Shown here: positions 15,077 through 56,606 of the stretch, piece by piece
Numbering within the stretch: the first letter of the stretch is position 1
How the letters are laid out: every line of letters starts with the position of its first letter
NCBI GenBank assembly: GCA_044237745.1
Contig: JBIIER010000016.1
Span: 1,053 to 65,052, forward strand
Direction: 5' to 3'
DNA: 64,000 bases
DNA from: Pseudobdellovibrionaceae bacterium
GTDB taxonomy: Bacteria > Bdellovibrionota > Bdellovibrionia > Bdellovibrionales > Bdellovibrionaceae
Notes under the pieces: model-generated
What the model was told of the DNA's origin: nothing
Databases searched by the model: none
The model's input: the letters and a program-made list of their open reading frames with translations, nothing else
Translations under genes and position numbers: made by a program

Positions 15077-16052
15077 CTAGAGGAGTCTGAAAATCACTGA
15101 ACCATTTCCAGAATTTCCACCCGTTGTATTTGATTGATTGGTGCCTCCGTTATAGGAGCCACCTCCACCTCCTCTGTAGCCGGTATTGGTCCAAGAAGCT
15201 CCACCACCGCCTGCATAACCGCCGCCGCCGGGTGAGCTATGTCCACTTGACGCGGAACCACCACCGCCACCAAATCCTCCATTGGCTCCATCTCGACCGA
15301 CTCCTCCCGTGCCACCATTTAAAAAACTCATTCCTCCACCACTTGTTGCAGAAACTCCATCATTGGCATTACTTCCATTGGCACCATTTGAATAAAATCC
15401 TCCGCCGCCCCCAGAGGAACCATAGGTTCCACTTCCTCCTCCGGCCCCAGCAGAACCTCCAGCGCCGTTATCGTACCAAGTACCACTTACGGTTCCTAAC
15501 CCCCCGAGCTGTTTTTCCCGGAACTTCCAATATCTCCATGTGCTGCAGTATAAGTAATGGAATTGTAGGCACCGGCACCACCACCCGCAATTATTACTGG
15601 TCCATAAACATCAGTTGAAACAAAAGTGCCACCACCGGCACCATTATTATAAACAGCTGTTGAAATTCCCATTTGACCGACCATAATTCTCAGAATTTGC
15701 GATTTAGTTAAATTAAACGTACCAACCATGACTGCACCTAATCCACCACCTGCAGCACTTGTTCCCGCACCTGAAGCTCCATAAGCAGTAATTTGATAAC
15801 TGCCAGATACAGGAACAGTCCAAAGCTGAATTCCATTAGTGACGCTATAATAAAGTGGATTATTTAACCATGGATAGGGCTAGCATTATATGAGCTGATC
15901 AGCGTTGCTTGAGAAGGCCCCGTACGTCCTGTTGTTCCTGCTGAAGTAAAAGTAAAAGTTGTAAATGGATAAAGTGGGACATTAGCACCATTACCTGCAT
16001 TTCTCCCAAATCCACCAGAAGAAGCTCCACCTCTTGATCCCATTAATGGCAT
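15077..16052 (-). pseudogene. stand-alone ALK/LTK-type TNF-like + glycine-rich domain (GRD) protein, interrupted by two 1-nt frameshifts
   Basis: Three ORF fragments in three frames (16052..15864, 15863..15496, 15495..15077) join into a ~325-aa product. It contains YPFTTFTFTSAGTTGRTGPSQ, GIQLWTVPVSGSYQITAYGASG, ILRIMVGQMG, GGGTFV, VIIAGGGAG, GGFGGGGG and a terminal GSVIFRLL. AGGAG SD precedes the ATG at 16052. The breaks lie at a TT/AAA run (~15862-15869) and at a C6 tract (15500-15505). Confidence 0.7.
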
Positions 16053-20388: not shown

Positions 20389-20601
20389 TTAATTGACTTC
20401 CTCTTTTTCAATATCGATTTGATTTCCTGGCTGAGGGACTTCTGCCAACCATTTCCCATCAGGGCAAGATGTGCCAGAGAGTTTCACTTTGACTTTCATA
20501 AAGCACCCGCAAACAGAACATCGAGCTAGGGTGCTATTAAAAAAAGTGCATTGTTTGCAAATATCAAATCTTGATTGAGCTTTTGCTTGATCGACAAACA
20601 T
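20389..20601 (-). CDS. small Cys-rich (zinc-binding) protein, phage-like
   Basis: 70 aa with pattern C..C-x12-C..CGC-x14-CP.GKW. The start overlaps the upstream stop as TAATG, suggesting translational coupling. The pattern resembles small ORFs common in phage genomes (recalled). Confidence 0.5.
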   Translation of the reverse strand: MFVDQAKAQSRFDICKQCTFFNSTLARCSVCGCFMKVKVKLSGTSCPDGKWLAEVPQPGNQIDIEKEEVN

Positions 20602-21161
20602 TAAGTCACCTCGTAATCAGGCACTTTTTCCCAACTTAAAGTTTGAGAATTCCATGCGAGACCATTTTGTTCATTGGTTGCTAAAGAAGGATTTAAATTC
20701 CAAATTTGCTGAGACTCATCCCAAGTATAAATCTCACCCTCTTTAAAAGCAGGCCTTGCCACAGGAGCGAACCAGGCTTGATCTTTCCATTTCCAAGACG
20801 GGAATGGTTGCTGAGGTTGTGAAGTTTTAAATTTAAAACTCACATCCATTTGAACGCCTTCTTCATGGGACCAAATATTTAAGGTGTAACTATGGAAGGC
20901 TTTCAGATGGAGACTGACCAGCTCAATAAATAATTGATCAGTACTTTCGTAAGTGAGCCCTGGACGAGGAAATTTTTGAAAATCCACCCTTTGATTATTT
21001 TCGTCGAACAATTCATAACCAAAAGATAAATTATTAAAGACCACTGTTTGAGTTTGCTTGGTAAAACGGAATTGCAATTCTGCATATACCGAACCCAGAT
21101 CAACAACACTCATGTTCCATTTTTTATTTATTAAATCGTTTGTAGCTATTATTGAACTCAT
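20601..21161 (-). CDS. Trp-rich hypothetical protein (possible fibre-assembly/chaperone-like)
   Basis: 186 aa. The start is 2 nt after the stop of the glycine-rich gene. The C-terminal half PFPSWKWKDQAWFAPVARP...YTWDESQQIWNL resembles phage tail-fibre-assembly-type W/P motifs (weak, from memory). Confidence 0.45.
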   Translation of the reverse strand: MSSIIATNDLINKKWNMSVVDLGSVYAELQFRFTKQTQTVVFNNLSFGYELFDENNQRVDFQKFPRPGLTYESTDQLFIELVSLHLKAFHSYTLNIWSHEEGVQMDVSFKFKTSQPQQPFPSWKWKDQAWFAPVARPAFKEGEIYTWDESQQIWNLNPSLATNEQNGLAWNSQTLSWEKVPDYEVT

Positions 21162-21163
21162 TT

Positions 21164-22126
21164 TTACACCGCATACTTTATCATAATGATTCCTGATCCA
21201 CCTTTACCGCCACCAGCTGAAGTATAGCCATTTCCATTAGTACCAGAGCCTCCACCACCACCAGTATTAGCTCCACCGGCGCCACCCCAAGTTGGATCTC
21301 CAGATGGCCCTGCAGCACCTGCATTTCTGGCACTTCCACCTCCAGAACTTCCGCCACTCTGGCCAGAACCGCCACCGCCGCCGCCAATTCCACCATTACC
21401 GCCAGCATTACTACAATAACCATCATTACCGCCACCACCAGACCAATAGTAGCCGATACCATCAATACTTAAAGCGATACCTGGGCCGCCATCGCGGCTT
21501 GCATATCCATAACCGTTACCACCGGCACCACCACCGCCACCGCCACGACATGAGCAGCAACCTGCATCATTGGCGCCTCCATTATAACCACCATAGGCGG
21601 TTCCTGTCCAACCTGCTGGCAATGTCATCGATCCCACAGTAGCTCCAGTTCTTGTACTGTAACTATATCCACCAGTATTGGCGACGCCCTGGTTTCGAGA
21701 GGGCACATTTCCAGTGTAACAATGTCCAGCACCACCACCCAAGGCTGTTAAGCCAAAGGCTGTTGTGCTCTCCCCAGGATATCCATCGGCCCAACCAATG
21801 GCTCCAGCACCCCCATTACCCACATAGAGTCCGTATGTTCCAGGCAACATCTGAGCAGAGGCATAGATAATTCCTCCACCGCCGCCGCCACCACCAAGCA
21901 TACCACCGCCACCACCACCGCCAACAAGCATAGCGGTCACAGAACCTTTGCCTGTAAAAGTAATGGAAGCGCTACCCACAGCTAAAAAAGTATGAATTTT
22001 ATAATTGATACCACCAATATTTACAGTTGTGATGGTTCCGCCCGTTCCGACCAATGGGCCCACTCCTGAGTTTCTTTGTCCAAAATTACTTGCAGCAGTC
22101 ACTCCTCGACGACCGACAAATGGCAT
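21164..22126 (-). CDS. glycine-rich domain protein (ALK/LTK-GRD-related, phage-type subfamily)
   Basis: Start moved to the ATG at 22126 (AAGGA SD 7 nt upstream), giving MPFVGRRG.... Motifs: YKIHTFLAVGSASITFTG, AMLVGGGGGGG, many GGxGG runs, CCSCRGGGGGG, terminal GGSGIIMIKYAV. No signal peptide. Confidence 0.7.
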   Translation of the reverse strand: MPFVGRRGVTAASNFGQRNSGVGPLVGTGGTITTVNIGGINYKIHTFLAVGSASITFTGKGSVTAMLVGGGGGGGMLGGGGGGGGIIYASAQMLPGTYGLYVGNGGAGAIGWADGYPGESTTAFGLTALGGGAGHCYTGNVPSRNQGVANTGGYSYSTRTGATVGSMTLPAGWTGTAYGGYNGGANDAGCCSCRGGGGGGAGGNGYGYASRDGGPGIALSIDGIGYYWSGGGGNDGYCSNAGGNGGIGGGGGGSGQSGGSSGGGSARNAGAAGPSGDPTWGGAGGANTGGGGGSGTNGNGYTSAGGGKGGSGIIMIKYAV

Positions 22127-22227
22127 AAGAATTCCTTTCAAGAATTTTAATAGCAATTAAATTTATTTTTAAATTGATTCACAAAAAAGTAAAGCTTCAA
22201 GGATTTTAATATAACAAAGTGGCGGAG

Positions 22228-22278
22228 CCAGCCGAAGTCCGCAGACAGCTCGAAGAGCTGTGGCGAGACGAAGGCTGG
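22228..22278 (-). other. GC-rich extended stem-loop abutting the tRNA 3' end (terminator/processing element?)
   Basis: CCAGCC...GGCTGG outer stem and ACAGCTC-gaa-GAGCTGT inner stem in an otherwise AT-rich region. The outer stem includes the tRNA CCA. It is followed on the minus strand only by a weak T-rich run. Confidence 0.35.
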
Positions 22279-22352
22279 TGATTCCGGCCTGGATTGAACA
22301 GGCGACCCCCAGTTTAGGAAACTAGTGCTCTATCCAACTGAGCTACGGAATC
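22276..22352 (-). tRNA. tRNA-Arg (anticodon CCU)
   Basis: A 77-nt cloverleaf was folded by hand: acceptor GATTCCG/CGGAATC, D-arm GCTC-AGTTGGATA-GAGC, anticodon arm CTAGT-TTCCTAA-ACTGG, variable GGGTC, T-arm GCCTG-TTCAATC-CAGGC, discriminator A, encoded CCA. Confidence 0.92.
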
Positions 22353-53159: not shown

Positions 53160-56100
53160 TTATGGATCCACTAAGAATGTGATTGTTACGTATCCGTCAT
53201 TTGGATTTGAACCACCCACATTAGTTTGATTGGATCCGGTATTGTAAGATGAACCTCCACCACCCCATGTGCTGTAAGAACTCCAAGAGCCATTAATAGA
53301 TCCACCAGAATAGCCGCCACCGGCACCAGGATTTCCTAAGGCACCAGGACCGCCACCGCCGAAGCCCCCATTGTGATTTCCACCATAACAACTGGAGATA
53401 TATCCACCATTACCTCCGTTTGAGAATGAAGTTCCTCCTCGAGCCGTATCACAGTGACCTCCACCATTATTACCATTACCAGTTAATCCGCCACCGGCAC
53501 CACCAGTATTACTTCCAATGACATTGCCTCCGGCACCGCCTGAAGCTCCACTCACATTTCCAGCACCGCTGTAATAACCTTGAGAGTTAGTAGTAGTCAC
53601 ACCATCTCCAAATGATGCATCTCTATAGGTCGATGTACCATAAGAAGCAGAAGGAGCTCCTCCTCCTCCACCAGCAACAATAAGTGCATTTGTTCCCGTC
53701 GCGCCGTTGATCACATAGGTTCCTCCACCACCGCCATTTTCATTATAGTGCGGACTCGTATCGGCTTGACCTTTTTGACCCACGAGAATTTGTAAAACAG
53801 TTCCTTGAGTGAGGCTAAAATCACCCGCCATCACGGCACCTGAACCGCCATTGTAATTTAAAGTTCCACCGGCAGCACCTGCTGCAACAATTCGATAGGT
53901 TCCTGTTTTAGGAACGGTCCATTTTTGAATTCCTTGAGAAGACATATTCAGATAGCTCGTATTGGAGGCCCAGGATTGAGAGCTGTAAGCTGATTGGCAA
54001 GTTCCTAAATTTGGCCCTGTATAACCAGTGGCTCCACAAGTTGTAAAAGTAAAAGCATTGAAAGGATAAAGCTGCGGAACAATGCTTCCTGTTTTGGCAA
54101 GAATCATCCAGTTCGCACCATCAGAAACTAAATTTAAATATTGATACTTAGTAGAAAGCACAGCTCCTGTATAATCATCTATTTTTTGCGAACTTGTAGT
54201 AGCAATAGTCACTGTGTTTACGGAGTTATCTATTTTTTTAATACGATACTCACGACCAGAAATCCCCACTGCAGTTGGGAGAGTTAAAGTGATGGAACCA
54301 CTAGATACATTGGCTAATATATTTGTTTGAGAAGCAGTTAATGTTTGCGTGGTTGTCACAGTATTTAATCCCGCTGCAAAGGATCCTGAAACTTGCAAAC
54401 TTGAAGTTGGAGAAGCTGTTCCCACACCCACACTCCCTGCTGTGTAAGAAACATTGCTTCCACTTACAGCCCAAACACCTGTGCTTGGTTGACTCTTCCA
54501 CGTTGTTCCGTCGCTGGTTAACACATTACCAGAGGCGCCAGGAGCTACAGTTTGTACAGCGCTGGTTCCATTACCTAGAATCACACTGTTTGATGCCAAA
54601 CTGGTAGAGCCTGTCCCTCCATTCGCGACTTCAATTTTATTACCATTCCAAGTTCCCGTTGTGATGGTTCCCAATATTGTAAGATTTGTTGATCCCGCTG
54701 TAGGAGAAGCTCCAATATCTGCAGCTGCGGCTCCTGTTTTATTTATTTTAGACCATGATATTGCGGCCGCCGCTGCAATGTCTTCATCGGCCAGAGAAGA
54801 TTTTGCAGCTAGAGTTCCTAAGTTTGGTTTATTAATGAGATCACTATAACTTCCTGAAGTGGCCGCTGTTGATAAACCCGTCACTTGATCAGCTGGTAAA
54901 GAAATATTTTGACAAGAGAACTGATCCGTAATGGAAGACCAAATTAAAGTCTGCGAAGAATTGCAAGTATCCACATTAAATGCTGAAGAGGTCCCTAAAC
55001 TATTTTTAAGATCAGAGAGTTTCATAAACTGAGGCTGCCATCCCATTCCATTTAAAAATCGCAAATACTTTCCATCATCAGTCGCTAATGCCTTACTCAC
55101 ATTCACACCATTGATTTTATCAACAATAGTTTGAGATTGAGTGCCCGAAACATCTCCAACAAGATTTCCGGTAAATGAAGTTGAGGTATTTGCGTTGCCA
55201 GTAATATCTATACCCCACTGGCCACTCGCTGCTGATTGAATTTCTGAAATATTTATTTTTAAAATATTTTCATCTATTTTTAATCCAGATCCAGGCGCGG
55301 CCTTGGCAAATGCCTGAACCGTTCCCGCATCAGGAGTACAAGTCCATACGCCGTTTGTTTTTTTAAGAATTTCACCGTCTGAGCAAGTCGTTGATGCTAT
55401 TTCTCTTAAAGGCTCTGGAACACTTGTTAGTTTTGAATAGTTTAAACTCACAACACTTGAATCAGAAATTGAACTGCTCTTAATATTGGCCCCATTAAAA
55501 TTATTGGCGTCAGACATTTTTAAATATTTATCTGTTGTGCCATTGATGATGGCTAATAAATCAGACAATTTTGTAGCATCCAACTCAGTATTTGTTGAAT
55601 CAACTCCATCAGCTATTCTTAAAAGTCGTTCCTTTGAATAACCACCCACTTGTAAAGATTCAAGTGCCATTGGAACATATTGAATATCTTGCGCTGGCAA
55701 GGGATCGTAATCTGTAAAATTATAATCAGTGTTGTCCTTAAAATAAACATAGAACTTACGTCCCTCTGTTAATGGAGGAGGATTGTTAGTTGATCCATTG
55801 GCACACTCTATTGACTGAGTCGATGTCATAGTTTTGTTCGAAAAAATCTGACCCATGGTTAAACCGGTAGTGTCTGTTCTTGTGAGTGAGTCTTCTTTAA
55901 TTTTAATAGAAAAAACACCGGCTGTATAAGATAAGTCTTTTTCTTGAATGTCTTCAAAAAGTATACAAGAACTTGGCGGCGCACTTTTAATCTGAACCTT
56001 TATGAGCACAGAATTGCTAATTAAAGGTTTACCATCTGGTTTCAGTAATCTTCCGTTATAAGATAAATACTGCATGCTTGGTGGCGCTTCTGCTTGCGCT

Positions 56101-56216
56101 GATAAATTAGAAAAGAAGATGATAGTAAACAAGCAAGTGATCCAAAATAGAATATTGCTTTGTTTTTTTGTTCGAAAATCTTCCACTGATAAATAACCAA
56201 TTGGTCGTTCTCTCAT
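53160..56216 (-). CDS. tail-fibre-like surface protein with C-terminal ALK/LTK-type TNF-like + glycine-rich domain
   Basis: Start set at the ATG at 56216 (AGGAG SD), about 1018 aa, with N-terminal anchor ILFWITCLFTIIFFSNLSAQA. The middle has phage-fibre-type motifs: SGSYSDLINKPNLGTLAA, TGTWNGNKIEVANGGTGSTSL, GNVLTSDGTTWKS, VGVGTASPTSSLQVSG, LTLPTAVGISGREYRIKKIDNS...SDGANWMIL. The last ~304 aa (54074..53160) carry GRD motifs: YPFNAFTFTTCGATGYTGPN, GIQKWTVPKTGTYRIVAAGAAGG, LQILVGQKG, GGGGGTYVI, LIVAGGGGG, GGFGGGGPG, DGYVTITF. Confidence 0.7.
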   Translation of the reverse strand: MRERPIGYLSVEDFRTKKQSNILFWITCLFTIIFFSNLSAQAEAPPSMQYLSYNGRLLKPDGKPLISNSVLIKVQIKSAPPSSCILFEDIQEKDLSYTAGVFSIKIKEDSLTRTDTTGLTMGQIFSNKTMTSTQSIECANGSTNNPPPLTEGRKFYVYFKDNTDYNFTDYDPLPAQDIQYVPMALESLQVGGYSKERLLRIADGVDSTNTELDATKLSDLLAIINGTTDKYLKMSDANNFNGANIKSSSISDSSVVSLNYSKLTSVPEPLREIASTTCSDGEILKKTNGVWTCTPDAGTVQAFAKAAPGSGLKIDENILKINISEIQSAASGQWGIDITGNANTSTSFTGNLVGDVSGTQSQTIVDKINGVNVSKALATDDGKYLRFLNGMGWQPQFMKLSDLKNSLGTSSAFNVDTCNSSQTLIWSSITDQFSCQNISLPADQVTGLSTAATSGSYSDLINKPNLGTLAAKSSLADEDIAAAAAISWSKINKTGAAAADIGASPTAGSTNLTILGTITTGTWNGNKIEVANGGTGSTSLASNSVILGNGTSAVQTVAPGASGNVLTSDGTTWKSQPSTGVWAVSGSNVSYTAGSVGVGTASPTSSLQVSGSFAAGLNTVTTTQTLTASQTNILANVSSGSITLTLPTAVGISGREYRIKKIDNSVNTVTIATTSSQKIDDYTGAVLSTKYQYLNLVSDGANWMILAKTGSIVPQLYPFNAFTFTTCGATGYTGPNLGTCQSAYSSQSWASNTSYLNMSSQGIQKWTVPKTGTYRIVAAGAAGGTLNYNGGSGAVMAGDFSLTQGTVLQILVGQKGQADTSPHYNENGGGGGTYVINGATGTNALIVAGGGGGAPSASYGTSTYRDASFGDGVTTTNSQGYYSGAGNVSGASGGAGGNVIGSNTGGAGGGLTGNGNNGGGHCDTARGGTSFSNGGNGGYISSCYGGNHNGGFGGGGPGALGNPGAGGGYSGGSINGSWSSYSTWGGGGSSYNTGSNQTNVGGSNPNDGYVTITFLVDP

Positions 56217-56606
56217 GGGTTCTCCTAACAAATTACATAAAAATTAATCAACATTAACTCTTCGGAAGATCTAGTTAAAACTTAAACAAAAAATGCTTAA
56301 TTCATGTCTCCTTTTGAGGAAAATAACTTAATTTTTGTTCAATTTGAGACATGCCAAAAAAATTAAAATCTGATGTTTCATATGTAAAAATAAACCCTTT
56401 TTTTCTTGCAAATTGAGGAGCTACTTTAATTGAAAAATGTTTTGTCGAGATTTTTTATAAATAATTTTAAATTCTTAATACTTGAGAATTAATCACCCAG
56501 ATAGACCTCAATCTTTAATCTCAAGAAGATTCCTTCTCACATCTCTCCAAGATACCAACTAGACTTAACAAAGAAAAGAAAAGGGACTTAAAATTGAGGA
56601 GGAGTT

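What the first reader, a model, noticed from the sequence alone, without database searches (positions are those of the whole stretch)
20389..22352. Translationally coupled GRD / Trp-rich / Cys-rich three-gene module next to tRNA-Arg(CCU)
The 320-aa glycine-rich gene, a 186-aa W-rich ORF (2-nt gap) and a 70-aa C..C/C..CGC/CP.GKW ORF (TAATG overlap) form a compact unit. It starts about 150 nt downstream of a tRNA-Arg gene. All three resemble ORF types I associate with phage genomes: glycine-rich proteins ending ...GGSGI(V/I)(I/M)I(R/K)Y, fibre-assembly-like W/P motifs, and small zinc-binding ORFs. It may be a domesticated adhesin plus chaperone cassette. Its function in a cellular genome is undescribed as far as I know.
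Basis: partly seen in the sequence, partly recalled or inferred. Interest (0 to 1): 0.6.

Follow-up and report, generated by a model that had tools for sequence, protein, structure and literature searches.

The report
Phage fibre-tip cassette in a bacterium
Three tightly packed genes next to a tRNA gene are a copy of a gene trio that many aquatic phages keep in their tail-fibre region (a glycine-rich receptor-binding tip and two small uncharacterised helper proteins); here the trio sits alone in the chromosome of a bacterium with no prophage genes found, so it was probably captured from a phage.

Summary
On the minus strand lie tRNA-Arg(CCU), a 149-nt spacer, a 320-aa glycine-rich gene, a 186-aa Trp-rich gene after a 2-nt gap, and a 70-aa Cys-rich gene with a TAATG overlap.

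Gene 1 is a Pfam Gly_rich_2 protein. Its best solved relatives are the cyanophage Pam3 tail fibre and the ALK/LTK glycine-rich domain.

Gene 2 belongs to a large unnamed family (439 clusters). It models confidently as an Ig-like sandwich followed by three Trp beta-hairpins.

Gene 3 is DUF6171, with six invariant cysteines.

The same ordered trio recurs in at least nine phage lineages, whether loci were picked through gene 3 or through gene 1. It usually lies among fibre, baseplate or neck genes. The gene-2 hairpin module also occurs in a second family (phrog_7759). That family sits directly after glycine-rich fibre genes in pelagiphages, roseophage, a Methylophilales phage and T4-like cyanophages.

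In this genome I found no capsid, terminase or sheath gene. Genes 2 and 3 are nearly absent from relatives, and gene order ends at the tRNA.

Best reading: a phage-derived fibre-tip adhesin with cognate assembly or partner proteins, possibly in use by the bacterium. The helper roles and any present function are inferred, not shown.

The parts
22276..22352 (-). tRNA-Arg(CCU). It marks the edge of conserved gene order (pilB-pilT-pilC-pilS-pilR-tRNA).
   Evidence: ARAGORN; Rfam RF00005 62.2 bits. The pilR-tRNA-Arg(CCU) junction is conserved in 5 of 8 relatives, but nothing downstream is shared.
22127..22275 (-). 149-nt AT-rich leader. It holds a weak sigma-70-like match (-35 at 22173, -10 ending at 22144) and AAAGGA at 22138-22133, 6 nt before the ATG.
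   Evidence: Sequence read. Promoter scan scored 9 of 12, no better than shuffled sequence. No Rfam element.
21164..22126 (-). Gene 1, 320 aa, a stand-alone glycine-rich-domain (GRD) fibre-tip-type protein. It has a leader MPFVGRRG... (aa 1-25), a beta-sandwich (aa 26-101, closed by strand 313-319), and a polyglycine region with CC.C and YC motifs (aa 102-312). There is no signal peptide.
   Evidence: Pfam PF21722 Gly_rich_2, 27.5 bits against a cut-off of 24.3. phrog_2295 E 1.8e-19. Profile against PDB: Pam3 fibre 7yfw/7ypx E 3.6e-4, ALK GRD E 0.011. Foldseek best match 7ypx, prob 0.91, on a poor model of pLDDT 53.6. 46-60% identical to phage-contig homologues L174, L176 and L177.
20601..21161 (-). 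Gene 2, 186 aa. It has an Ig/FN3-like beta-sandwich (aa 1-112; nt 20826-21161) and three Trp beta-hairpins (aa 115-179; nt 20625-20819). It also has a C-terminal tail, PDYEVT.
   Evidence: No Pfam or NCBIfam family. phmmer found 439 clusters at E<=1e-3. Alignment A1 has invariant P65, W123, W130, P137, W147, W154. AlphaFold pLDDT 93.2. Best BFVD matches are Synechococcus phage S-H38 (5e-14) and S-WAM1. The hairpin module is homologous to phrog_7759-type proteins (hhalign 98.9%, E 2.3e-17).
20389..20601 (-). Gene 3, 70 aa, DUF6171. It has a small cysteine-rich core (aa 11-51; nt 20449-20571) with the pattern RFDIC-x2-C...C-x2-CGCFM...CP-x-GKW. It also has a 19-aa acidic tail that the phage copies lack.
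   Evidence: Pfam PF19668, 28.6 bits against a cut-off of 27. phrog_13558 E 3.3e-15. Alignment A2 has invariant C15, C18, C28, C31, C33, C46. 81 phage records. 584 viral-contig relatives.

Best explanation
The three genes are a horizontally acquired copy of a conserved phage tail-fibre-tip cassette.

**Gene 1** encodes a stand-alone receptor-binding tip. It has a short N-terminal docking leader (MP-hydrophobic-hydrophobic...RG), a TNF-like beta-sandwich, and a glycine-rich lattice domain of the kind seen in the Pam3 fibre gp24, S16 gp38 and the ALK/LTK receptors. In those proteins, variable loops at the far end of the lattice bind the ligand.

**Gene 2** is translated in step with gene 1. I infer that it is the cognate partner of gene 1. 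Most likely it is an assembly or holding factor that grips the nascent glycine-rich domain through its conserved Trp-hairpin module, while the Ig-like domain gives specificity. Alternatively it stays on the tip as a second component.

**Gene 3** is a small cysteine-rich, probably metal-binding accessory protein. It accompanies the cysteine-containing subclass of these tips.

**In phages** the cassette follows the fibre shaft gene. **In this bacterium** it stands alone in a variable region just after tRNA-Arg(CCU). No capsid, terminase or sheath gene was found in the assembly. The genome otherwise holds many glycine-rich-domain surface proteins.

**Shown:** homology, fold class, conserved gene order, phage context, absence from relatives.

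**Inferred:** the binding between the proteins, the helper role, metal binding, and present use as an adhesin.
For: **Family and fold**
- Gly_rich_2, phrog_2295, and PDB profile matches to the Pam3 fibre and ALK.
- Published structures describe glycine-rich fibre tips and their separately encoded chaperone (PMC9608196).

**Conserved gene order**
- Among the 80 best viral DUF6171 loci, those that carry a gene-2 homologue directly upstream all carry a GRD gene directly upstream of that. These are L012/13/14/52, L020, L022, L023 and L038/L040.
- L153, which holds the closest DUF6171 relative, shows the same order.
- I also picked loci independently, through the nearest GRD homologues. All 3 with usable context carry the same trio: L174/175, L176 and L177/178.

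**Phage context**
- The trio lies next to fibre, baseplate or neck genes in annotated or typed contigs. In S-H38 the order is tail fibre, then phrog_5906, then GRD, then gene-2 homologue. In L174 an Mtd_N fibre lies upstream and a Peptidase_S74 fibre downstream. In L153 the trio is followed by T4 gp13.

**Second family with the same hairpin module**
- The gene-2 Trp-hairpin module is shared with phrog_7759-type proteins.
- These proteins directly follow GRD-ended fibre genes in HTVC025P, CRP-207, S-RSM4, HTVC008M and Melnitz (twice). The same holds in two genomes of the phylum, one copy of which lies just before a lysis-type gene.

**Acquisition**
- Gene 2 is absent from 60 relatives. Only the hairpin type is found, in 2 of 400 other genomes of the phylum. 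DUF6171 is found in 4 of 151 family genomes, counting this one.
- Gene order ends at the tRNA in every relative examined.

**No prophage genes found**
- No sheath, HK97 capsid or Terminase_6N gene in the assembly.

**Signs of retention**
- All three ORFs are intact and the coupling is preserved.
- GC3 is host-like: 0.31-0.32 against 0.28 for the genome.
- The locus is identical in five metagenome contigs.
- A second GRD / 2OG-oxygenase / DUF6171 cassette and 16 Gly_rich_2 matches occur in the same genome.
Against: - No direct evidence shows that the three proteins interact. No evidence shows that any of them is expressed or exported in the bacterium. None has a signal peptide.
- The model of gene 1 is poor (pLDDT 53.6), so its fold assignment rests mainly on profile matches of modest E-value.
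- Gene 2 is not a member of any known fibre-chaperone family. There was no Caudo_TAP match, and Foldseek gave only generic Ig/FN3 hits in the PDB.
- Gene-2 family members also occur away from GRD genes: L015-L019, next to glycosyltransferase or 2OG-oxygenase genes.
- Most DUF6171 genes, about 70 of the 80 viral loci, have neither partner. Neither helper is therefore strictly tied to the tip.
- In phages the tip follows a fibre shaft gene, and that gene is missing here.
- Identical sequence in all samples gave no polymorphism, so purifying selection could not be tested.
Confidence: 0.6

Rival explanations
1. Inert remnant. The trio is cargo left behind by a decayed or abortive phage integration, or by a recombination event, at a variable spot next to tRNA-Arg(CCU). 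It has no role in the bacterium and is simply too young to have decayed.
For: - It lies at a break in gene order directly after a tRNA.
- No fibre shaft gene lies upstream and none of the three proteins has a signal peptide.
- A sister GRD gene 5 kb away is already broken into three frames (earlier finding e1-3014701).
- No polymorphism was available to show selection.
Against: - No integrase, att repeat or other phage gene lies nearby.
- All three ORFs and both coupled junctions are intact.
- GC3 is host-like.
- The genome keeps other phage-like GRD cassettes and 16 GRD proteins. This argues that the gene type is in use in this lineage.
Confidence: 0.2
2. Gene 2 is not a chaperone but a structural partner. 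In this reading it is an Ig-like decoration or adaptor whose Trp hairpins bind a carbohydrate or the fibre. It would stay on the mature tip and contribute to receptor binding.
For: - The confident model shows an Ig/FN3-like sandwich plus aromatic hairpins.
- The nearest non-family Foldseek hits are phage baseplate, tailspike, BppU and neck-passage proteins.
- The family also occurs without an adjacent GRD gene.
Against: - Its position directly after the fibre-tip gene, often as the last tail gene before lysis genes, is the classic place of fibre assembly factors.
- There are no virion proteomics data either way.
Confidence: 0.2
3. The helpers belong to a maturation system that chemically modifies the glycine- and cysteine-rich tip, for example by hydroxylation, metal insertion or disulfide chemistry. 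In this reading DUF6171 is the redox or metal component.
For: - DUF6171 sits between two 2OG-Fe(II) oxygenase genes, right after a GRD-like gene, in the second cassette of this genome.
- 2OG oxygenases, a thioredoxin, a DUF6445 protein and a sulfotransferase flank the trio or the hairpin proteins in several phage loci.
- The GRDs that pair with DUF6171 contain conserved cysteines.
Against: - The window's own cassette holds no enzyme gene.
- DUF6171 is only about 45 residues of conserved core with no catalytic signature.
- 2OG-oxygenase genes are plentiful throughout these phage genomes, so adjacency may be incidental.
Confidence: 0.1
4. Assembly or binning artefact. In this reading the cassette belongs to a phage contig wrongly joined to the bacterial chromosome.
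For: All three families are mainly viral.
Against: The same junctions (pilS-pilR-tRNA-GRD-gene 2-gene 3-convergent gene-kinase) are assembled independently, with 97.8-100% nucleotide identity across the locus, in five metagenome contigs from JGI and Logan samples.
Confidence: 0.01

Closest known systems
Cyanophage Pam3 tail fibre gp24 with its chaperone gp25 (PDB 7YPX/7YFW; PMC9608196)
   Same: - A receptor-binding protein built of a TNF-like sandwich plus a glycine-rich lattice domain. It is the best PDB match of gene 1 by profile (E 3.6e-4) and by Foldseek.
- The next gene encodes a separate helper with an N-terminal beta-sandwich.
   Different: - gp24 carries its own alpha-helical shaft, which gene 1 lacks.
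- gp25 has a C-terminal alpha-helical trimerisation domain, whereas gene 2 has Trp beta-hairpins. No sequence or Foldseek match links gene 2 to a Pam3 chaperone chain.
- Pam3 has no third, DUF6171-type gene in that description.
gp38 adhesins of T2/S16/PP01-type Straboviridae (PDB 6F45)
   Same: - A small stand-alone tip protein with a polyglycine lattice and variable distal loops.
- It is encoded directly after the fibre gene and docks onto the fibre end through its N-terminal part.
   Different: - No detectable sequence match here; 6F45 is not among the profile hits.
- The gp38 middle domain differs.
- gp38 assembly depends on gp57A, not on an adjacent Ig-like or Cys-rich gene.
ALK/LTK extracellular TNF-like + glycine-rich (TG) module (Pfam PF12810; PDB 7LRZ, 7N00, 7NX1)
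   Same: Same domain class. ALK chains are profile hits (E about 0.01), and LTK/ALK chains appear among the Foldseek hits.
   Different: - It is the ligand-binding part of an animal receptor kinase.
- Gene 1 matches the sister Pfam family PF21722, not PF12810. No PF12810 match was reported at E<=1.
Phage tail fibre assembly proteins (Caudo_TAP PF02413; lambda Tfa, Mu TFA)
   Same: - The gene lies immediately after the fibre or adhesin gene.
- Two-module build with one conserved and one variable half.
- Trp/Pro-rich motifs.
   Different: - No HMM match at E<=1.
- The predicted fold is an Ig-like sandwich plus beta-hairpins, and no solved TFA appears among the top 50 Foldseek hits.
Mosaic adhesive trimer (MAT) fibres of Bdellovibrio bacteriovorus (PMC10769870)
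   Same: - Phage-tail-fibre-like adhesins used by a predatory bacterium, with swappable tips.
- This genome carries large GRD-tipped proteins of that general kind (earlier finding e1-3014704).
   Different: - MAT proteins are long, carry a signal peptide and a conserved N-terminal beta-rich domain, and fold with an internal S74 chaperone or none.
- Gene 1 is 320 aa with no signal peptide and has separate helper genes.
- That paper does not mention glycine-rich tips; the word 'glycine' does not occur in it.

Membership tests
Pfam PF21722 Gly_rich_2 (gene 1) | HMM score above the curated gathering cut-off over most of the model | tested here: met
   27.5 bits against 24.3; model positions 7-225 of 226. 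Precomputed PF21722 on the identical protein and on nearly all homologues.
TNF-like + polyglycine-lattice fibre tips (Pam3 gp24 / ALK TG class) (gene 1) | Sequence-profile relation to solved members | tested here: met
   A3 profile against PDB: 7yfw/7ypx E 3.6e-4; ALK chains E 0.011-0.025.
TNF-like + polyglycine-lattice fibre tips (Pam3 gp24 / ALK TG class) (gene 1) | Three-dimensional lattice of extended glycine strands packed on a beta-sandwich | tested here: inconclusive
   In the AlphaFold model only the sandwich is confident (pLDDT 76-85). The glycine region is below 50. Foldseek best hit is 7ypx, prob 0.91, but E 0.056 and TM 0.34-0.42.
gp38-type stand-alone adhesin (gene 1) | Docks on the distal end of a separately encoded fibre | not testable with these tools
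   In phages a fibre gene with a phrog_5906-type C-terminal domain precedes the GRD gene. In the window no such gene is adjacent. One exists elsewhere in the genome, at C74.
Pfam PF19668 DUF6171 / phrog_13558 (gene 3) | HMM score above cut-off; conserved cysteine pattern | tested here: met
   28.6 bits against 27. phrog_13558 E 3.3e-15. Six invariant Cys in A2.
Zinc-ribbon proteins (gene 3) | Bound metal; knuckle geometry | not testable with these tools
   Only weak, non-significant profile matches to the ribosomal zinc-ribbon proteins eL40 and bL31 (E 0.3-0.6).
Caudo_TAP tail fibre assembly proteins, PF02413 (gene 2) | HMM match | tested here: not met
   No Pfam family at E<=1. None for the phrog_7759-type relative either.
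Pam3 gp25-type fibre chaperone (gene 2) | N-terminal beta-sandwich plus C-terminal alpha-helical trimerisation domain | tested here: not met
   The model has the sandwich but no helix at all; the C-terminal part is three beta-hairpins. No Pam3 chaperone chain appears among the top 50 PDB matches.
phrog_7759 (gene 2) | Full-length HMM match | tested here: inconclusive
   Whole-protein E 0.028, covering the hairpin region only. The profile-profile comparison shows that only the 44-residue hairpin module is shared (98.9%). The N-terminal domains differ.
tRNA-linked integrative island or prophage | Integrase, direct repeat of the tRNA 3' end, other phage genes | tested here: not met
   - No repeat of the tRNA end within 10 kb.
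- Neighbours are a kinase, an FGE-sulfatase-like protein, an amine oxidase and proteins of no known family.
- No capsid, terminase or sheath gene in the genome.
- The break in gene order at the tRNA is real.
Bdellovibrio MAT fibres (gene 1) | Signal peptide, conserved ~130-aa N-terminal beta-rich domain, long trimeric fibre | tested here: not met
   By inspection only: 320 aa, N-terminus MPFVGRRGVTAASNFGQRNSG with no hydrophobic signal. No MAT profile was available for a formal test.

The most novel reading that the evidence does not exclude
Proteins that carry the Trp-hairpin module (the gene-2 family and phrog_7759) are a so far unrecognised, widespread class of dedicated folding or holding factors for polyglycine-lattice domains.

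It would use it to make stand-alone, exchangeable recognition tips. These would dock in trans, through the shared MP-x-x...RG leader, onto exported phage-fibre-like stubs.

One candidate stub is the C74 protein. It joins a twin-arginine-like signal to a phrog_5906 fibre-end domain and is followed by another stand-alone GRD gene. Folded tips could then leave the cell by riding on the partner's signal.
Probability: 0.12. Interest if true: 0.8.

Novelty: new variant of a known kind. Interest (0 to 1): 0.5.

Why it matters
Glycine-rich lattice domains are the receptor-binding tips of well-studied phage adhesins and the ligand-binding part of the human ALK/LTK receptors. How they fold is barely known.

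This work defines a conserved gene trio, and a broader gene pair, that links such tips to two uncharacterised protein families. The trio or pair occurs in abundant aquatic phages: pelagiphages, roseophage, a Methylophilales phage and T4-like cyanophages. This gives concrete candidates for their assembly factors.

That adds to the picture of predatory bacteria borrowing phage fibre parts for surface recognition.

If the helper role holds, the small proteins would be useful for producing glycine-rich binding domains in the laboratory.

Tried and rejected
- **tblastn of gene 1 and gene 2 against 50,697 phage records:** no match. Low-complexity filtering and divergence explain this; relatives were reached through HMMs and other family members.
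- **BLASTP between GRD proteins with composition adjustment:** gives nothing useful.
- **Sf-FP1 190-aa protein upstream of its DUF6171 gene:** unrelated to gene 2.
- **att-type direct repeats of the tRNA end:** none; all repeats found are glycine-codon repeats.
- **Intrinsic terminator after gene 3:** none. Gene 3 ends 4 nt from the end of a convergent gene.
- **Special link to tRNA-Arg(CCU):** rejected. There are only 2 AGG codons in the trio.
- **PDB fold search for gene 2:** generic Ig/FN3 hits only.
- **Selection test across five metagenome copies:** impossible, because there are 0 differences in the trio.
- **Literature:** no paper mentions DUF6171, PF21722, phrog_2295 or phrog_13558.
- **Organism name:** could not be checked with the tools left.
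Full report
**1. What is in the sequence**

All features lie on the minus strand. tRNA-Arg(CCU) is at 22276-22352 (Rfam tRNA). A 149-nt AT-rich spacer follows. It carries a Shine-Dalgarno-like AAAGGA 6 nt before the ATG at 22126.

- Gene 1 is 21164-22126 and encodes 320 aa.
- Gene 2 is 20601-21161 and encodes 186 aa. It starts 2 nt after the gene 1 stop (TAA-aa-ATG).
- Gene 3 is 20389-20601 and encodes 70 aa. It starts inside the gene 2 stop (TAATG).
- Gene 3 ends 4 nt from the end of a convergent 489-aa gene.

No intrinsic terminator was found, and only a weak promoter-like match. Upstream of the tRNA lie pilB, pilT, pilC, pilS and pilR.

**2. What the three proteins are**

*Gene 1* passes the Pfam threshold for Gly_rich_2 (PF21722) and matches phrog_2295 at E 1.8e-19. 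I built a profile from it and nine phage homologues (A3). Its best solved relatives are the cyanophage Pam3 tail fibre (7yfw/7ypx, E 3.6e-4), followed by the ALK glycine-rich domain (E about 0.01).

The AlphaFold model is poor overall (pLDDT 53.6). It does give a confident beta-sandwich for residues 26-101, closed by the C-terminal strand IIMIKY. Foldseek again ranks the Pam3 fibre first, with the Bxb1 tail tip and the LTK/ALK TG domains below it.

The Pam3 paper describes this architecture: a TNF-like sandwich plus a glycine-rich lattice that binds the receptor. It also describes a separately encoded chaperone, gp25, that grips the glycine-rich part (PMC9608196).

*Gene 2* has no Pfam or NCBIfam family. 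An exhaustive phmmer search nevertheless finds 439 representative clusters at E<=1e-3 and 188 at E<=1e-10, mostly 155-170 aa long. The alignment shows invariant P65, W123, W130, P137, W147 and W154. It also shows the motif PxPxxPYxSWxW...WxAPxPxP..DGxxYxWNExxxxW.

With that alignment the model is confident (pLDDT 93.2). It shows an Ig/FN3-like sandwich (residues 1-112) followed by three Trp beta-hairpins. The PDB offers only generic Ig/FN3 matches. Among predicted viral structures, the best matches are uncharacterised proteins of Synechococcus phages S-H38 (E 5e-14) and S-WAM1.

*Gene 3* passes the threshold for DUF6171 and matches phrog_13558 at E 3.3e-15. Six cysteines are invariant (C-x2-C, C-x2-C-G-C, C-P-x-G-K-W). 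It has relatives in 81 phage records and in at least 584 viral contigs. No paper in the library mentions the family.

**3. The trio is a recurrent phage module**

I called ORFs in the 80 best viral DUF6171 loci and scanned them with my own HMMs. A gene-2 homologue lies directly upstream of DUF6171 in L012/13/14/52, L020, L022, L023 and L038/L040. In every one of these, a glycine-rich gene ending ...GGSG(I/V/F)(I/V)(I/M)I(R/K)Y, or a close variant, lies directly upstream of that.

The closest DUF6171 relative (68% identity, L153) shows the same order. There the trio is followed by ferritin and T4 gp13-like genes.

As an independent test I picked loci through gene 1 instead. All three nearest GRD homologues with usable context carry the same GRD, gene 2, DUF6171 order:

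| Homologue | Identity to gene 1 | Locus |
|---|---|---|
| P0166 | 60% | L176 |
| P0170 | 56% | L177/178 |
| P0172 | 46% | L174/175 |

L174 is part of a 165-kb contig. There the trio lies between an Mtd_N-type fibre gene and a Peptidase_S74 fibre gene.

The module therefore exists in at least nine phage lineages.

The longer gene-2 proteins, which have the third hairpin and the C-terminal tail (P)DY(E/D)(V/I/L)(S/T) as in the window, are the ones found in trios.

**4. A broader pair: glycine-rich tip plus Trp-hairpin protein**

The cultured cyanophage S-H38 has this order: tail fibre, two small fibre-like genes (one of them phrog_5906), a 296-aa GRD gene (MPIIASF...), then a gene-2 homologue. 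It has no adjacent DUF6171.

A second family, phrog_7759, has a different N-terminal domain. It shares the 44-residue hairpin module with gene 2 (hhalign 98.9%, E 2.3e-17).

I sampled eight cultured phages across its 38 phage records. The gene lies directly after a GRD-ended protein in these cases:
- pelagiphages HTVC025P and HTVC008M;
- roseophage CRP-207;
- cyanophage S-RSM4;
- Methylophilales phage Melnitz, at both of its copies.

It probably does so in phiPsal1 too, where the upstream ORFs look mis-framed. It does not in S-SSM5 or DSL-LC04.

A sample of 401 genomes (this one plus 400 others of the phylum) gave hits in only two other genomes, both of the hairpin type. Each hit lies directly after a GRD gene, and one lies just before a CHAP-type lysis gene.

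A position straight after the adhesin gene, often last in the tail module, is the classic place of fibre assembly factors. That is the basis, and the only basis, for the helper assignment.

**5. The situation in this genome**

- Gene 2 is unique in the genome and absent from 60 relatives.
- DUF6171 occurs in 4 of 151 family genomes, counting this one.
- The pilR-tRNA-Arg(CCU) junction is conserved in 5 of 8 relatives. None of the genes downstream of the tRNA is shared in either direction. The cassette therefore sits in a variable region that starts at the tRNA.
- There is no integrase, att repeat or other phage gene nearby.
- The assembly has no sheath, HK97 capsid or Terminase_6N match.
- The locus is not an assembly artefact. 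The same junctions are assembled in five metagenome contigs.
- The trio has zero nucleotide differences among those contigs, so selection could not be measured.
- GC3 is host-like.

The genome is rich in this domain:
- It has 16 Gly_rich_2 matches, many inside proteins of 900-2800 aa.
- A 1023-aa protein with an ALK_LTK_GRD domain lies in the window.
- A broken GRD gene lies beside a kinase at 15077-16052.
- A second cassette at C51 has the order GRD-like, 2OG-Fe(II) oxygenase, DUF6171, 2OG-Fe(II) oxygenase.
- At C74 a protein with a twin-arginine-like signal and a phrog_5906 fibre-end domain is followed by another stand-alone GRD gene.

I read the MAT paper (PMC10769870). Gene 1 does not have the defining MAT features.

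**6. Explanation and limits**

The best-supported reading is a phage fibre-tip cassette taken up by the bacterium.
- Gene 1 is the binding tip.
- Gene 2 is its cognate assembly factor or partner, acting through the Trp-hairpin module.
- Gene 3 is a cysteine-rich accessory protein that goes with the cysteine-bearing tips.

Homology, fold class for genes 1 and 2, gene order, phage context and acquisition are shown. Protein contacts, the helper role, metal binding, export and present use are inferred.

Several points count against the helper reading:
- Many gene-2 relatives and most DUF6171 genes occur without a GRD neighbour.
- Gene 2 fits no known chaperone family.
- No fibre shaft gene is adjacent here.
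- None of the three proteins has a signal peptide.

I put about 0.6 on the overall reading, about 0.2 on an inert remnant, and less on the other rivals.

**7. Novelty**

Glycine-rich fibre tips and fibre chaperones are known kinds. To my knowledge, and in the searched library, three things are undescribed:
- the conserved trio;
- the Trp-hairpin module shared by two families that follow such tips;
- a free-standing copy in a bacterial chromosome.

I rate it a new variant of a known kind, of moderate interest.

Noticed in passing
window 15077-16052 (-): A second stand-alone glycine-rich gene, starting MPLMGSRGG..., is split over three reading frames (62, 77 and 84 aa pieces) beside a Hanks-type kinase gene. 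One metagenome variant (L129) lacks this stretch altogether.
   Followed up: partly
window 53160-56231 (-): A 1023-aa protein carries a Pfam ALK_LTK_GRD domain (PF12810, E 1.7e-8) near its C-terminus. It looks like a long fibre-like protein with a glycine-rich tip.
   Followed up: partly
own genome C51:119248-123469: A second phage-like cassette. A 254-aa protein with a twin-arginine-like signal (PRRKFLK) matches a phage virion protein family (phrog_19943). It is followed by a 290-aa GRD-like gene (MPLLGKTG...), a 2OG-Fe(II) oxygenase (phrog_81), a 47-aa DUF6171 gene and another 2OG-Fe(II) oxygenase. A 551-aa Gly_rich_2 paralogue lies 3.5 kb further on.
   Followed up: partly
own genome C74:42032-43552: A 208-aa protein joins a twin-arginine-like signal (SRRQFF) to a phrog_5906 domain (E 2e-21). 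In phages that domain ends the fibre gene just before the GRD tip gene. Here it is followed after 9 nt by a 294-aa stand-alone GRD gene starting MPFINSRG.
   Followed up: partly
own genome, 16 places: The genome has 16 Gly_rich_2 matches, 14 above the Pfam cut-off. Many lie at the ends of open frames of 900-2800 aa.
   Followed up: no
phage and bacterial GRD proteins (window 22052-22126; L130:5095; L176:151; L023:3367; C74; C51): Stand-alone GRD proteins of phages and of this bacterium share an N-terminal leader of the form MP-(F/L/I)-(V/I/L/M)-x-(S/K/R)-(R/T)-G...FG. It may be the part that docks on the fibre end.
   Followed up: partly
L142 (Pontimonas phage phiPsal1) 2792-3487: The two annotated ORFs upstream of the hairpin protein are Val/Leu-rich in the way glycine-codon repeats read out of frame. 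A glycine-rich gene is probably mis-called there.
   Followed up: no
L006 (Synechococcus phage Sf-FP1) 4980-5144; L004 (Xanthomonas phage X1) 4953-5153; L174 7538-7738: DUF6171 genes are left unannotated or uncalled in several records. In Sf-FP1 the gene overlaps the start of a 1240-aa virion structural protein that contains a glycine-rich stretch.
   Followed up: partly
L020 4971-5328: Two DUF6171 genes in tandem follow the GRD / gene-2 pair. The first has lost the C-x2-CGC motif (it reads CSETGSF).
   Followed up: no
L167, L169, L170, L172, L173 against window 22276: In five related genera tRNA-Arg(CCU) also follows pilR. In each genus the genes after the tRNA are different and have no homologue in this genome. 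This looks like a family-wide variable spot.
   Followed up: partly
L007/L010 4797-5984 and 3-872: In P22-portal-type phage contigs, DUF6171 follows a Gly/Asp/Cys-rich protein with repeated YNILGQCI(A/S)CCDG units and precedes the terminase gene.
   Followed up: no
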